Below, in pieces: positions 31,627-45,052 of a stretch of DNA of 59,027 nucleotides. A program made the position numbers and the translations under genes. Source of the DNA: Clostridia bacterium (lineage in GTDB: Bacteria; Bacillota; Clostridia; TANB77; CAG-465); assembly GCA_045637095.1 (NCBI GenBank), contig JAZTYX010000052.1, positions 1-59,027 of the forward strand, written 5' to 3'. Below the pieces are notes generated by a model. It did no database searches and was not told the DNA's origin. It saw nothing but the letters and a program-made list of their open reading frames with translations. How positions within the stretch are numbered: the stretch's first letter is position 1; each line of letters begins with the position of its first letter.

Positions 31627-31974
31627 ATGAAAAAATTAATGAAAGTATTACCAGTTATGATGTTAGTATGCTTAGCATTTACTTCTGTATTTGCTATAAA
31701 CATGAACCTTAACAACTTAACTCAAGGACAAGGTGGAGCTTCTGCAATAACAGCTGCTGCAGGTAGAACTTGGGCTACAGTTGTAACAATAGTTCAAATA
31801 CTAGCAGTTGCTGCAGTAGTATTTGCAGGTTTAAGATACATGTTTGCATCAGCTGACCAAAAAGCAGATATCAAAAAGAGCATGGGAACATTAGCAATTG
31901 GTGCTGTTCTAGTATTCGGTGCTACTACAGTAATCAAATTCGTATCTAACGCAACTAACCAAATTATTAGATAA
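31627..31974 (+). CDS. VirB2/TrbC-like T4SS pilin 1
   Basis: Signal peptide (VFA), then two TMs joined by GLRYMFASADQKADIKK. Confidence 0.8.
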   Translation: MKKLMKVLPVMMLVCLAFTSVFAINMNLNNLTQGQGGASAITAAAGRTWATVVTIVQILAVAAVVFAGLRYMFASADQKADIKKSMGTLAIGAVLVFGATTVIKFVSNATNQIIR

Positions 31975-32050
31975 TAAAAAAATGAAATTAACAAGGGCAA
32001 GCAAATGCTCTTGTTTTTTTTATATTTAAACATGACAAATTTATATAATG

Positions 32051-32119
32051 TTACAAAAAGATTACAAAATAAGTATGTGAATAAAAAATCTTGCAAAAAC
32101 GCTTGCTAAATGGTAAAAT
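32051..32119 (+). promoter_or_regulatory. Pilin-2 promoter with TTACAA-N5-TTACAA
   Basis: TTACAA at 32051 and 32062; TTGCAA-17-TAAAAT with TG extension. Confidence 0.7.
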
Positions 32120-32149
32120 GCAAGTATAGAAATGAAAGAGGTATAAAAT

Positions 32150-41197: not shown

Positions 41198-44100
41198 GTG
41201 AGCTCAAATTACGATGATGAAGAAAATTACGACGAGGATGATGGCAGGAAAGAACTCAAGGATGCAAAAAATAAAGCACAAGATGCAAAAAAAGAATATG
41301 ATAAAGCTCATGGTAAGGGCCAACCGGAAGGAGGCAGCCAGCAAGCTGCACAGCAAGGAACACAACAAGCGGCAGAAAAAGGAGCTACGTCTACTGCTGA
41401 AACTGCAGCTAAAACAAAAGCAGCAGAAAAAGGAGCAGAAAAAGGAGTAGAAGTAGCTAAAAATGCCGGCGAACAATTAGCTCAACAAGGAGGATCTCAA
41501 GCCGCGGGAGCGGGATCGGGAGCAGGTGCCGGAGCAGGTGCTGGAACAGGTGCTGGAGCAGGTGCTGGAGCAGGTGCCGGAGCAGGTGCCGGAGCAGGTG
41601 CCGGAGCAGGTGCCGGAGCAGGTGCCGGAGCAGGTGCCGCAGGAGCAGGTGCCGCAGGAGCAGGTGCTGCAGGAGCAGGTGCCGCAGGAGCAGGTGCCGC
41701 AGGAGCAGGTGCCGCAGCAGGAACAACTGCCGCAGCAGCAGGAACAACCGCAGCAGCAGCGGGAACAACTGCCGCAGCAGGAACCGCAGCAGCCGCAGGA
41801 ACTGCAGCTGCAACAGCAGGAACAGTAGCCGCAGCGGGTGGAGCGGTAGCAGCGCAAGCAGCTATACCTGTTGCAGGTTGGATTGCATTAGCAATTGAAG
41901 CGGCAATCTTATTGATGATTGGTTTGTATAAAATGCAAAAGAAATTCGATAAGAAGATGGAGGAAAAAGGAATAGATTCAAAAGGAATTCGTAGATTAAT
42001 GCTAATTTCTCCAATATTAATGCCTATTGCTATAATAGTACTAGTTGTAGTGTTAATAGCATTATTAATGCAAGCAGAAACTGCAGATAGAACACAATTT
42101 ATGATTGATGCACTAGAGTGCTTTGAGAAAAATGGTGGTTCAGGGTATAATAAAGCTAGCAATAAATGTGTAGATTTCTATGGCTCAAATTTATTGTTTG
42201 AGGATGGATGGCTTGCAAGTAGATTCGGTCGTTATTTTCTTGTAAATACTGAGTCGCCGCTTATTAAAAAGACAGACTTTGCAATAGCAATGTTTGTAGC
42301 TGAATATTTGGGTGTAGAATTCTTAGTATTTGGAGAAAATGGTGTAGAACATTCTTTGAAAGATTCAATGGAGAGTGTGTCTAACTACGATTTCTTAAAT
42401 GAAAATAAAAACAGTGTATTAGCAAAAATGAAAGAAGTATTAACTTTCTTCTTAGATCCATTAGGAATATTAGATAAGATAAATGACTTCGTAACAGAAG
42501 GATGGTATCTATTCAAATGGTGTAAGATGGAAAAGAAAATCTTCAATAATATAGAATGGGGTTCAGTAACAGTACATAAAGTAAGTGAAGGCCCATTAGT
42601 TGGTTTATTTAATTCTGCAGTAGATAGAATAGCGCTTGGAATAATACAAGTTGATCCATCTGAGTATTTGAGAAGAACATATTATGATACAACACAATGG
42701 AAAACTGGTATAGATTTTAATTTAACAACAGGATATTTAAGAATACCTGGTACAGCAATTGGAAATCTATTTAAATGTGCTGTTACACTTGATCAAGCAA
42801 TAGCTCTTACAGATGAATACATACCATCGTTTATAGAAATATACGCAACATATGCTGCTACAGGAGACTATAAACGTGCGGACAAGGTTTATGATTATTA
42901 TGTAGATAATATGAAAAAAGGTAAACCACTAGAACTTAGACTGGTAACATATGAAAAGTTTACTGTAGATAAAGTTAGAAGATGGGGAGATGGCCCTGGA
43001 AATACGCCTGTAAGTACGATTGTGTATAATCAAACAAATCCAGATGGTTCATGGGATAATAGAGATATAGGTGAAGCTGGATTTAATAGTATTAAATCTG
43101 CTATACAAGCAAAGAGAAAATGGTGGCAAAAAATCGCGGATGCAGTAAGAAATGCGGTAGTATCGTTCATAAACGAGGTAATTACAGCGGTTAATACTTT
43201 ATGGGAAGAAGTAAAGGCATTGTTTGGTTTCGATGTTACTATTAAGAAAGAATATGTTACTGTTGTAGAAAAGGGAGCGTCCTACGAGTATATGGTAGAG
43301 AACTACTATAGCATGGGAATTGACGAATATGAAGTTGAAAGACCAGCGGTAGTAGAAAAAACACCTTCTATTGGAGCAAGTAAGAGATATCCTGCAAGCG
43401 GTCATATAGAATTAAGATATGAAGTAACAAGAGATGTTTATGATGCTGAAGGAAATAAAATTGGAACTGAAACAATAGAGTCAGATTCATGGGATATGGC
43501 AATACGAGCACAAGGTGCGGTTAAATATAACGAAAGCCATACTATAACACAACATACGCTTATTCCAAAATCAACATGTAAGATGGAGATGTTCGGAAAA
43601 ACACCAGAAACAGAAGGCTCTAATAACAGATATGCTTGGATATTAAATAAAATTGACGAAGCAGAAAAAGCAAAAGCTCAAAGATATCCAAATGCTACAA
43701 ATACAGATTATTTTACAGCAGAAGATGCTGCACTAGCAGTAGATGTAATAAATGGATATTATTCTAATACATTCGGCTTGTTTGCAGGTGCTTCAGCAGA
43801 AAACTTCGATGAGGCTGGACCAATAAATGCATCAGTAGTTAAATATGCTGAGCAATTTAATGGTAAAAAGCTAGCTTATATGAGAAGTATAGATGATACT
43901 AATACATTCTTAAATGACGAATGGTGTGCAATGTTTGTTTCATTCGTTATGAAGAAAGCAGGAGTTGGGGTTCCAAAATTCTATGGTTGTTCAACATTCT
44001 GGGCTACCTACAAAGATAAACCAGGTTTCTATGATATAGTGGCGTCAAATCATCAAAGCTATATAACGAAATCTTCTTCACATAGGGTGGCAAATTGGAA

Positions 44101-44380
44101 TGAGATAAAACCGGGAGACATACTATTGTTTAGATGGCCGGATGCAAAGAGCCATGTAGCAAGAAATCATACGGGTATATGTAAATCTGTTCAGAAAGAT
44201 GCTTACGGTGATGTAACATCTATAACGGTAATTGAAGGAAATACTGGAACGGGTGGATATAGTAACACTAAAGTTTCTATAAAAACTTATTCAGGAACTG
44301 ACCGCTCATCATATACTAGCCTTACAAATATAGTATCTTTTGTAGATATTCAGGCGGTAAAGAACAGAGGCGGATGGTAA
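41198..44380 (+). CDS. Large membrane-anchored CHAP-domain cell wall hydrolase (VirB1 role) with Gly/Ala repeats
   Basis: C-terminal WCAMFVSFV, PGDILLF, HTGI, IEGNTG; two TMs after a Gly/Ala-repeat region. Confidence 0.85.
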   Translation: MSSNYDDEENYDEDDGRKELKDAKNKAQDAKKEYDKAHGKGQPEGGSQQAAQQGTQQAAEKGATSTAETAAKTKAAEKGAEKGVEVAKNAGEQLAQQGGSQAAGAGSGAGAGAGAGTGAGAGAGAGAGAGAGAGAGAGAGAGAGAGAAGAGAAGAGAAGAGAAGAGAAGAGAAAGTTAAAAGTTAAAAGTTAAAGTAAAAGTAAATAGTVAAAGGAVAAQAAIPVAGWIALAIEAAILLMIGLYKMQKKFDKKMEEKGIDSKGIRRLMLISPILMPIAIIVLVVVLIALLMQAETADRTQFMIDALECFEKNGGSGYNKASNKCVDFYGSNLLFEDGWLASRFGRYFLVNTESPLIKKTDFAIAMFVAEYLGVEFLVFGENGVEHSLKDSMESVSNYDFLNENKNSVLAKMKEVLTFFLDPLGILDKINDFVTEGWYLFKWCKMEKKIFNNIEWGSVTVHKVSEGPLVGLFNSAVDRIALGIIQVDPSEYLRRTYYDTTQWKTGIDFNLTTGYLRIPGTAIGNLFKCAVTLDQAIALTDEYIPSFIEIYATYAATGDYKRADKVYDYYVDNMKKGKPLELRLVTYEKFTVDKVRRWGDGPGNTPVSTIVYNQTNPDGSWDNRDIGEAGFNSIKSAIQAKRKWWQKIADAVRNAVVSFINEVITAVNTLWEEVKALFGFDVTIKKEYVTVVEKGASYEYMVENYYSMGIDEYEVERPAVVEKTPSIGASKRYPASGHIELRYEVTRDVYDAEGNKIGTETIESDSWDMAIRAQGAVKYNESHTITQHTLIPKSTCKMEMFGKTPETEGSNNRYAWILNKIDEAEKAKAQRYPNATNTDYFTAEDAALAVDVINGYYSNTFGLFAGASAENFDEAGPINASVVKYAEQFNGKKLAYMRSIDDTNTFLNDEWCAMFVSFVMKKAGVGVPKFYGCSTFWATYKDKPGFYDIVASNHQSYITKSSSHRVANWNEIKPGDILLFRWPDAKSHVARNHTGICKSVQKDAYGDVTSITVIEGNTGTGGYSNTKVSIKTYSGTDRSSYTSLTNIVSFVDIQAVKNRGGW
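41503..41853 (+). repeat. In-frame tandem repeats (12-bp GGAGCAGGTGCC, 15-bp GCAGGAGCAGGTGCC, then about 18-21-bp AGTTAAA units)
   Basis: Directly visible; encodes (GA)n, (AGAGA)n and (AGTTAAA)n. Confidence 0.95.
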
Positions 44381-44395
44381 GAAGGAGTTAGATAT

Positions 44396-45052
44396 ATGAA
44401 TAAAAATTTAGGATTACTTCTAGTAGTAGTTGGTGTTGTGTTAATTGGAGTTACAGTTTTATTTATGAATCCTACTCAGGGTACAGAACAAAAACTAGTG
44501 GAAGCTAAATTAAATGAAGAACAAATGCAATACTTAATAAAAGAGATGCAAAAATATTTAACAGCTTCAGACAATATTAATTCAGATACAACATTTGAAC
44601 TAGATGAAATGATAAAATTTGCATATTCCTATACTGTATATTTAGATACAAATAATGAATACGCTTCATATAATGAACTTACAGAAAAAGGAACAATAAA
44701 TGCAAATAAACTTAAAGAAAATATTAATTTAATATTTGGAATAGCTAATGCAAATATTAAAGATGCTGGCTATGAAATAATAGATGGTAAAGTAGAAATT
44801 GACTTAAACTCTCAAGGTGGAGATGCCGCAATATATAAATTTAAACAAAGAAATTTAAATAACGCGACTGGAGTTTGTATAACAGATATAGACTGTCTAG
44901 AATATACATCACCAAATGATAAATCTTCATTGTTAAACAAAACAGAATATAACGCTGAAGATGTTATATATACTTTACAAATTAAATATAGAGAAGTAGA
45001 TGGTAGAAAAGTATTATTAGCTTATTCAACTTATTCAAATTATGAATATTAA
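44396..45052 (+). CDS. Membrane-anchored hypothetical protein, last gene of the T4SS-like operon
   Basis: N-terminal TM, AAGGAG RBS, terminator follows. Confidence 0.7.
   Translation: MNKNLGLLLVVVGVVLIGVTVLFMNPTQGTEQKLVEAKLNEEQMQYLIKEMQKYLTASDNINSDTTFELDEMIKFAYSYTVYLDTNNEYASYNELTEKGTINANKLKENINLIFGIANANIKDAGYEIIDGKVEIDLNSQGGDAAIYKFKQRNLNNATGVCITDIDCLEYTSPNDKSSLLNKTEYNAEDVIYTLQIKYREVDGRKVLLAYSTYSNYEY

What the first reader, a model, noticed from the sequence alone, without database searches (positions are those of the whole stretch)
31627..45052. Domesticated T4SS-like locus with no coupling protein, classical relaxase or integrase
The order is four VirB2-like pilin genes, prgI, a split VirB4 N-terminal protein, virB4, a VirB6-like gene, two bitopic proteins, a giant CHAP hydrolase and a membrane protein. 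It is flanked by housekeeping genes (pgi, ssb, S1 protein, asd), with host-like codon usage and no att repeats, integrase, VirD4 or MOB relaxase in the window. Multiple VirB2 pilins are atypical for Gram-positive ICE systems. The layout recalls, from memory, the chromosomal T4SS of Patescibacteria. Inference: a non-conjugative role such as cell contact, host attachment, effector delivery or chromosomal DNA exchange.
Basis: partly seen in the sequence, partly recalled or inferred. Interest (0 to 1): 0.75.

Follow-up and report, generated by a model that had tools for sequence, protein, structure and literature searches.

The report
Domesticated secretion machine in gut Clostridia
Nearly every genome of an uncultured, metabolically stripped order of gut bacteria (likely TANB77) keeps a likely plasmid-derived type IV secretion system with a pilin array as a core chromosomal feature, which would likely be used to attach to and feed on other cells, as in Patescibacteria.

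Summary
The locus is real and not a mobile element. The order pilin array, prgI, trsD, virB4, VirB6-like, bitopic proteins, hydrolase holds. The VirB4 orthologue is in 146 of 151 genomes of the order (29 of 29 genera) but only 4 of 288 other Clostridia, at 30-39% identity. All five families are monophyletic for VirB4, VirD4 and RpoC. VirB4, one coupling protein and Replic_Relax all have their best plasmid matches on the same seven Clostridium plasmids; the one examined carries a single pilin. The relaxase-like protein lacks the usual catalytic acids. The ATPase core is as conserved as RpoC, while pilins (1-8), VirB6-like genes and wall-hydrolase domains vary. The hosts mostly lack nucleotide synthesis. 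Best reading (0.5): a host-contact machine convergent with Patescibacteria; main rival (0.25): chromosomal DNA exchange. No paper found describes it. Side discovery: virB4, nusB, map, xseA and clpC are broken by an extra C forming CGG before a glycine codon, likely read through by +1 frameshifting.

The parts
29353..30180 (+). TraX-family acyltransferase (family of the F-pilin acetylase); possible pilin modifier, link is a lead only
   Evidence: PF05857 E 1e-26; in 17 of 80 loci
31627..31974 (+). VirB2-like pilin 1
   Evidence: TrbC 27.1 bits, just under cut-off; 48% identical to pilin 3
32150..32512 (+). VirB2-like pilin 2
   Evidence: PF18895 over cut-off
32626..32970 (+). VirB2-like pilin 3
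   Evidence: PF18895 over cut-off
33021..33671 (+). Double-domain VirB2-like pilin 4
   Evidence: two sub-threshold PF18895 matches
33824..34180 (+). PrgI / VirB3-like
   Evidence: 9 of 14 homologues hit PF12666; 2 hydrophobic segments
34165..35736 (+). TrsD-like protein (split VirB4 N-terminus) with acidic tail
   Evidence: NF045975 positions 95-254, E 3.8e-5; in 79 of 80 loci
35726..37694 (+). VirB4 ATPase; standard reading stops at 37624 (632 aa); 655 aa if the CGG at 37574 is read as a +1 step
   Evidence: Walker A and B present
37715..39808 (+). VirB6-like polytopic protein with long hydrophilic tail (assignment is a lead)
   Evidence: homologue follows virB4 on the plasmid
39827..40294 (+). 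Bitopic protein 1, no family
40301..41167 (+). Bitopic protein 2: predicted membrane helix + NTF2-like + Ig-like domain; VirB8-like candidate
   Evidence: model pLDDT 88.8; NTF2-like Z 7-8.8, ApaG-like Z up to 9.8; plasmid homologue E 1e-8
41198..44380 (+). Giant membrane-anchored wall hydrolase (VirB1 role), Gly/Ala repeat, C-terminal CHAP
   Evidence: PF05257; Cys and His motifs present
44396..45052 (+). Bitopic protein 3, followed by a terminator-like hairpin (45051-45097)
45146..45919 (+). S1-domain protein, partner gene of Replic_Relax, likely plasmid-derived
   Evidence: beside Replic_Relax in 33 of 40 loci and on the plasmid
45928..46242 (+). Small fast-evolving membrane protein
46366..47391 (+). 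Replic_Relax (MOBC-like) protein: winged helix + PD-(D/E)xK-like fold, usual catalytic acids degenerate

Best explanation
This is an order-wide, chromosomally fixed type IV secretion system, likely captured from a clostridial plasmid, that likely builds a VirB2 pilus and wall-piercing channel with which these metabolically dependent bacteria would attach to and draw on other bacterial cells. Shown: gene content, order-wide presence, family-level vertical descent, purifying selection, pilin and VirB6-like amplification, hydrolase domain swapping, three coupling proteins elsewhere, missing biosynthesis genes. Inferred: TrsD/VirB4/PrgI/VirB6 extract pilins into a pilus; the variable pilins, bitopic proteins and hydrolases set which cell is gripped and which wall is opened; the coupling proteins load protein substrates (the catalytically degenerate relaxase-like protein may be a substrate or adaptor). 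Not shown: a pilus, a host, a substrate, the direction of transport.
For: 146 of 151 order genomes, 139 with one match; 4 of 288 other Clostridia. VirB4 is 64-71% identical across families, like RpoC at 64-68%. Pilins 1-8 per locus, median 43% identical, against one on the plasmid. Ten of 10 giant hydrolases tested carry differing mixes of M23, glucosaminidase, lysozyme, NlpC/P60, CHAP, C39, SLT and GDSL domains. dN/dS 0-0.07 for VirB4, PrgI, S1, Replic_Relax against 0.08-0.36 for VirB6-like, bitopic and CHAP genes (4 comparisons). PyrF over cut-off in 3 of 41, PurD 0 of 5, FabF 2 of 5 and none here, several ATP-synthase-type hits in 1 of 5. MOBP, MOBT, MOBV families 0 of 5 each. Patescibacteria have the same kit (VirB4, TrsD, PrgI, VirB6, pilin arrays, distant T4CP), essential for growth on a host (PMC12102498; PMC12857230). 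TANB77 is called low-independence and 'likely parasitic' in bioRxiv 2024.12.11.627901.
Against: No host or function is known. A DNA-binding relaxase-fold protein and coupling proteins are kept in 40 of 41 genomes, which fits DNA transfer. The degenerate motif is not a sign of domestication: the plasmid homologue lacks it too. Auxotrophy in the gut can be met by scavenging (PMC12306168). dN/dS stays under 1, so no arms race is shown. The genome has Spo0A and SpoIID-type genes and 1.3 Mb, less reduced than Patescibacteria. VirB4 conflicts with RpoC in 7 of 18 strong splits.
Confidence: 0.5

Rival explanations
1. A domesticated conjugation machine that moves chromosomal DNA between kin (Hfr-like or distributive transfer), with the Replic_Relax/S1 pair as a non-canonical relaxosome.
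For: T4CP, VirB4 and S1-Replic_Relax trace to one plasmid family; Replic_Relax is nearly invariant with a winged-helix domain; mosaic divergence along the operon and tree conflict show recombination; such systems exist (PMC12857230).
Against: The PD aspartate position is PT/AT/PS/CS in 36 of 36 orthologues parsed (4 of 40 not parsed) and E is followed by VV/VI/IV. ComEC is present in 5 of 5, so recombination has another route. Pilin arrays and hydrolase swapping are not needed for kin mating. Replic_Relax tracks RpoC with 0 of 18 conflicts.
Confidence: 0.25
2. An adhesion or effector-delivery system aimed at the animal gut or at gut protists.
For: Pilin arrays serve antigenic or host-range variation in Bartonella and Anaplasma (PMC12102498); all relatives named are gut MAGs.
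Against: The variable enzyme domains target peptidoglycan; no eukaryote-type effector was sought or seen.
Confidence: 0.1
3. A self-directed developmental channel (sporulation or kin cell contact).
For: VirD4 on C19 lies upstream of spoIID and an M23 gene, and the C45 cluster beside dnaB/dnaI.
Against: The spoIID neighbour was seen only within the genus; a self channel would not need variable surface parts.
Confidence: 0.1
4. An ordinary, still mobile or decaying ICE.
For: Plasmid ancestry; three operon copies in G012; genus monophyly rejected for VirB4, p-AU 0.005; tmRNA 6 kb upstream; virB4 looks frameshifted.
Against: parts are scattered over four contigs among housekeeping genes; the break is of a type also found in nusB and map.
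Confidence: 0.03

Closest known systems
Patescibacteria (CPR) chromosomal T4SS (PMC12102498; Wang 2023 as cited in PMC12857230)
   Same: VirB4 + TrsD + PrgI + VirB6 + VirB2 arrays + wall hydrolase, coupling proteins far away, no working relaxase evident, reduced host genome.
   Different: Spore-forming Clostridia; keeps a universal Replic_Relax/S1 pair; up to five VirB6-cluster ORFs; nearest plasmid VirB4s are clostridial. Relation to CPR VirB4 was not tested.
Transfer-like region of Clostridium beijerinckii plasmid NZ_CP107023 and six C. botulinum plasmids (KT897275-80)
   Same: Best plasmid hits for VirB4 (39-40%), the C5 coupling protein (34%) and the only ones for Replic_Relax (24-26%); on NZ_CP107023 the order pilin-prgI-trsD-virB4-VirB6-like-peptidase-..-bit2-like and the S1-Replic_Relax pair.
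   Different: Plasmid-borne, single pilin, typed non-mobilizable; only NZ_CP107023 was read.
MPF-FATA conjugative elements (CD1110/CD1115 type)
   Same: PrgI, VirB4, a CD1115-family VirD4 over cut-off (421.7 vs 250).
   Different: VirB4 is under the CD1110 cut-off (197 vs 325); VirB2 pilins present; no integrase, no MOBP/T/V relaxase.
TANB77 Tad-type pilus cluster (Kim 2024, PMC11680825)
   Same: Same order (inferred), also near universal.
   Different: That cluster is CpaB-TadZ-CpaE-TadA-TadCB; the paper's main text has no mention of T4SS, VirB or conjugation.

Membership tests
Type IV secretion system | VirB4 ATPase with Walker motifs | tested here: met
Type IV secretion system | VirB3/PrgI | tested here: met
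   9 of 14 homologues hit PF12666
Type IV secretion system | VirB6 | tested here: inconclusive
   no TrbL Pfam hit in the window gene or 13 homologues; ESM lead and topology
Type IV secretion system | VirB8-like NTF2 bitopic protein | tested here: inconclusive
   NTF2-like domain Z 7-8.8, no VirB8 chain listed
Type IV secretion system | Coupling protein | tested here: met
   three in the genome; 40, 40 and 36 of 41 relatives
Integrative conjugative element | Integrase and att sites at the locus | tested here: not met
   the two genome integrases lie on other contigs
Integrative conjugative element | Patchy, mobile distribution | tested here: not met
   146 of 151; families monophyletic
MOBC relaxase | Winged helix + restriction-endonuclease fold | tested here: met
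   PF13814; FokI E 6e-5, winged-helix Z about 10
MOBC relaxase | PD...(D/E)xK-type catalytic acids (motif recalled; source paper not held) | tested here: not met
   PT/AT/PS-GG...E-V-V-R-R; other invariant acids (D142, E253, D254) could substitute
MOBC relaxase | Cognate oriT nicking | not testable with these tools
   needs biochemistry
Patescibacteria-type T4SS | TrsD + VirB4 + PrgI + divergent VirB2 array, T4CP distant | tested here: met
Patescibacteria-type T4SS | VirB4 inside the Patescibacteria clade | not tested
   no CPR sequence was in the tree
Patescibacteria-type T4SS | Essential for growth on a bacterial host | not testable with these tools
   uncultured

The most novel reading that the evidence does not exclude
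TANB77 is a second, independent 'CPR-like' radiation inside the Clostridia: an abundant gut order of spore-forming parasites of other bacteria whose ancestor tamed a whole plasmid transfer module into an essential feeding and attachment organ, and whose translation treats CGG as a +1 slip codon so that even virB4, nusB and the only map gene need recoding.
Probability: 0.4. Interest if true: 0.92.

Novelty: new variant of a known kind. Interest (0 to 1): 0.8.

Why it matters
A 2025 review says VirB2 pilins are absent from Gram-positive T4SSs except in Patescibacteria (PMC12857230). This would be a second case, with a traceable plasmid ancestor, so the step from conjugation to host contact can be studied. 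TANB77 is common in guts, uncultured and linked to immunotherapy response (PMC11680825); a host-dependent lifestyle would explain failed cultivation and says how to culture it. The CGG breaks mean core genes in these genomes are likely being miscalled as pseudogenes.

Tried and rejected
PF13814 genome search missed the window's own gene, so empty family searches are not proof of absence; MOBQ, MOBF and MOBH were not searched. Motif screen of ORFs was crude (it missed rpoB) and was used only as a pointer. I first took the relatives' second TrsD-VirB4-like cluster for the Kim 2024 cluster; section 11 of that paper shows a different gene set. 'virB4 is a pseudogene' rejected. 'CGG is always a four-base step' rejected: it lengthens 9 ORFs but would shorten 116. 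ESM Atlas gave no family for bitopic protein 2; Foldseek gave no match at E<=0.001. Homologue search with the Replic_Relax profile listed only close relatives. RNA runs were contigs with small shares; they cover bits of pilin 1, prgI and virB4 but do not show transcription or levels. Earlier findings: nothing. Francia 2013 not held. No complex prediction was run. Supplements of Kim 2024 were not read and bioRxiv supplements are closed; either could mention this locus.
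Full report
Host. The window is contig C52 of a 1.30-Mb, 31% GC genome, 98.7% complete. Loci with 68-70% identical VirB4 are titled Candidatus Scatovivens, which PMC13106387 places in family CAG-508 of order TANB77 (passage). Same-order genomes show that identity range, so TANB77 is inferred, not given by a tool.

Observation. The operon is as described; details and corrections are in the observation check. 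Three coupling proteins lie on other contigs: a CD1115-family VirD4 on C19, a TraM-recognition-type protein on C5 and a TrwB-type protein on C45 followed by a pilin, a TrbL/VirB6 gene and a PrgI-like gene. All have Walker A motifs. Downstream of the operon, S1 and Replic_Relax form a pair in 33 of 40 loci; in a genome of another family the pair sits divergently beside the pilins (G038).

Distribution. VirB4 orthologue: 146 of 151 order genomes, 29 of 29 genera, 139 with a single match and 7 with 2-3, some split by contig ends. In the class sample, 12 of 12 order genomes but 4 of 288 others, at 30-39% (G133 not scored). VirD4 40 of 41, C5 coupling protein 40 of 41, C45 protein 36 of 41, missing in 4 of 4 of family f3, Replic_Relax 40 of 41, one match each and 1 of 289 other Clostridia. 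In the best 80 of 572 loci, pilins occur in 80, TrsD in 79, VirB6-like in 79, prgI in 73 (part of the per-locus listing was cut from view), a tyrosine-recombinase-like gene in 1. Flanks differ between families, so the operon has moved but not been lost. Kin are not independent samples.

Descent. Quick LG+G4 trees recover all five families for RpoC, VirB4, VirD4 and Replic_Relax (weakest 86 for f2 in VirB4). Against RpoC over 38 shared genomes, strong splits in conflict were 0 of 18 (Replic_Relax), 3 of 21 (VirD4), 7 of 18 (VirB4); patristic r 0.94, 0.89, 0.84; genus monophyly is rejected for VirB4 (p-AU 0.005, two extra G012 copies left out). G012 has three operons, two in tandem, so hidden paralogy or exchange within the family is real.

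Origin. Among 72,556 plasmids the best VirB4 hits are a C. beijerinckii plasmid and six C. botulinum plasmids (39-40%); the same seven are the only hits for Replic_Relax and the best for the C5 coupling protein. The C. beijerinckii plasmid has one pilin, prgI, trsD, virB4, VirB6-like, a C39 peptidase, a bit2-like gene and S1-Replic_Relax. The 17 order VirB4s sampled form one clade (99) next to this plasmid and two other clostridial loci, with long-branch warnings. Capture from this plasmid family is the likely origin; direction was not tested with a root.

Relaxase-like gene. The model (pLDDT 74) matches winged helices and FokI/NucC. The position of the PD aspartate is T or S and the second acid is V/I; the motif itself is recalled. 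The plasmid homologue lacks even the Glu, so this subfamily may be an accessory protein rather than a decayed relaxase. MOBP, MOBT and MOBV were not found in 5 of 5 genomes searched.

Core and surface. In four comparisons with close species the cytoplasmic parts are as constrained as pgi, surface parts several-fold less; against L027 VirB4 is nearly identical (dS 0.16) while bit2 and CHAP are 65-66% identical (dS 0.70-0.98), a mosaic. Pilin number 1-8, VirB6-cluster ORFs 0-5 per locus (some are split pieces); hydrolase domains are swapped.

Lifestyle. PyrF 3 of 41, PurD 0 of 5, FabF 2 of 5; four of five genomes have a single strong ATP-synt_ab hit that is likely Rho (inferred from size and score); ComEC 5 of 5. 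This matches the Patescibacteria pattern of T4SS, type IV pili and ComEC with missing biosynthesis. Hence host contact 0.5, DNA exchange 0.25.

The virB4 break. An extra C makes AGA CGG A at 37574, shared by the 4 closest loci aligned and absent from 4 more distant ones; the four substitutions downstream are silent in the +1 frame. The same pattern splits nusB, xseA (twice), map, clpC and a glycosyltransferase; reading CGGN as Gly restores full domains, and no second map was found. In relatives 8 of 10 +1 junctions and 15 of 16 in xseA/nusB loci (the other was an opposite-strand ORF) sit on an in-frame CGG, at differing sites. Contigs from independent DNA and RNA-library runs span the virB4 site without gaps. 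CGG is rare (107 uses in 972 ORFs) and is also read in frame elsewhere. No tRNA-Arg(CCG) was found, but the tRNA set is incomplete. Likely partial +1 slippage at a slow codon; unproven. VirB4 is therefore likely full length.

Literature. Searches found no description of this system or of the CGG pattern; the library lacks most subscription papers. Seen: PMC12102498 parts 2-4 of 7; PMC12857230 passages and section 22; PMC11680825 passages and section 11; passages of PMC13155120, PMC12306168, PMC12807784, PMC13106387, bioRxiv 2024.12.11.627901 and 2025.05.29.656868; others as listings only. Wang 2023 and Francia 2013 only as cited.

Verdict. A real, order-defining domesticated T4SS; a new variant of a known kind; function inferred. 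Interest 0.8.

Noticed in passing
window 18077 (nusB), 18947 and 19470 (xseA), 37574 (virB4); G000 C9 map, C54 clpC, C1, C11, C26; L130, L131, L371, L373: Extra C before a glycine codon gives an in-frame CGG that breaks core genes; shared by close species and recurring at other sites across the order; likely tolerated +1 frameshifting. Merits its own study.
   Followed up: partly
G000 C45:20352-23603 (L026): Second mini-cluster: coupling protein, pilin, TrbL, PrgI-like, beside dnaB/dnaI; pilin and TrbL in 30 of 30 loci fetched, protein in 36 of 41 genomes.
   Followed up: partly
L189-L196, L281: A divergent TrsD-VirB4-like pair fused into a Tad-like cluster (followed by ~420, ~430, ~313 aa genes) in most relatives; not found in G000, whose contig C7 ends there.
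   Followed up: partly
G000 genome-wide; window 5189-17003: 37 ORFs begin with a type IV pilin-like signal (crude pattern); a type IV pilus operon lies in the window.
   Followed up: no
window 31537, 32051, 32524: TTACA-N5-6-TTACA repeat upstream of pilins 1-3; in 36 of 308 pilin upstream regions vs 28 of 933 others.
   Followed up: partly
G000 C5:26942: The C5 coupling protein has a private TAG at codon 711 where 4 relatives read on to about 806-822 aa.
   Followed up: no
G000 C19:12586-13251: Unknown 221-aa gene precedes VirD4 in 38 of 40 loci.
   Followed up: no
L209, L212: Family f3 has tandem copies of the C5-type coupling protein, lacks the C45 one, and G030 has extra ATP-synthase-like genes.
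   Followed up: no
genome-wide: CGG is enriched in the first 40 codons of ORFs (43 of 107 uses), mostly in accessory-looking genes.
   Followed up: no
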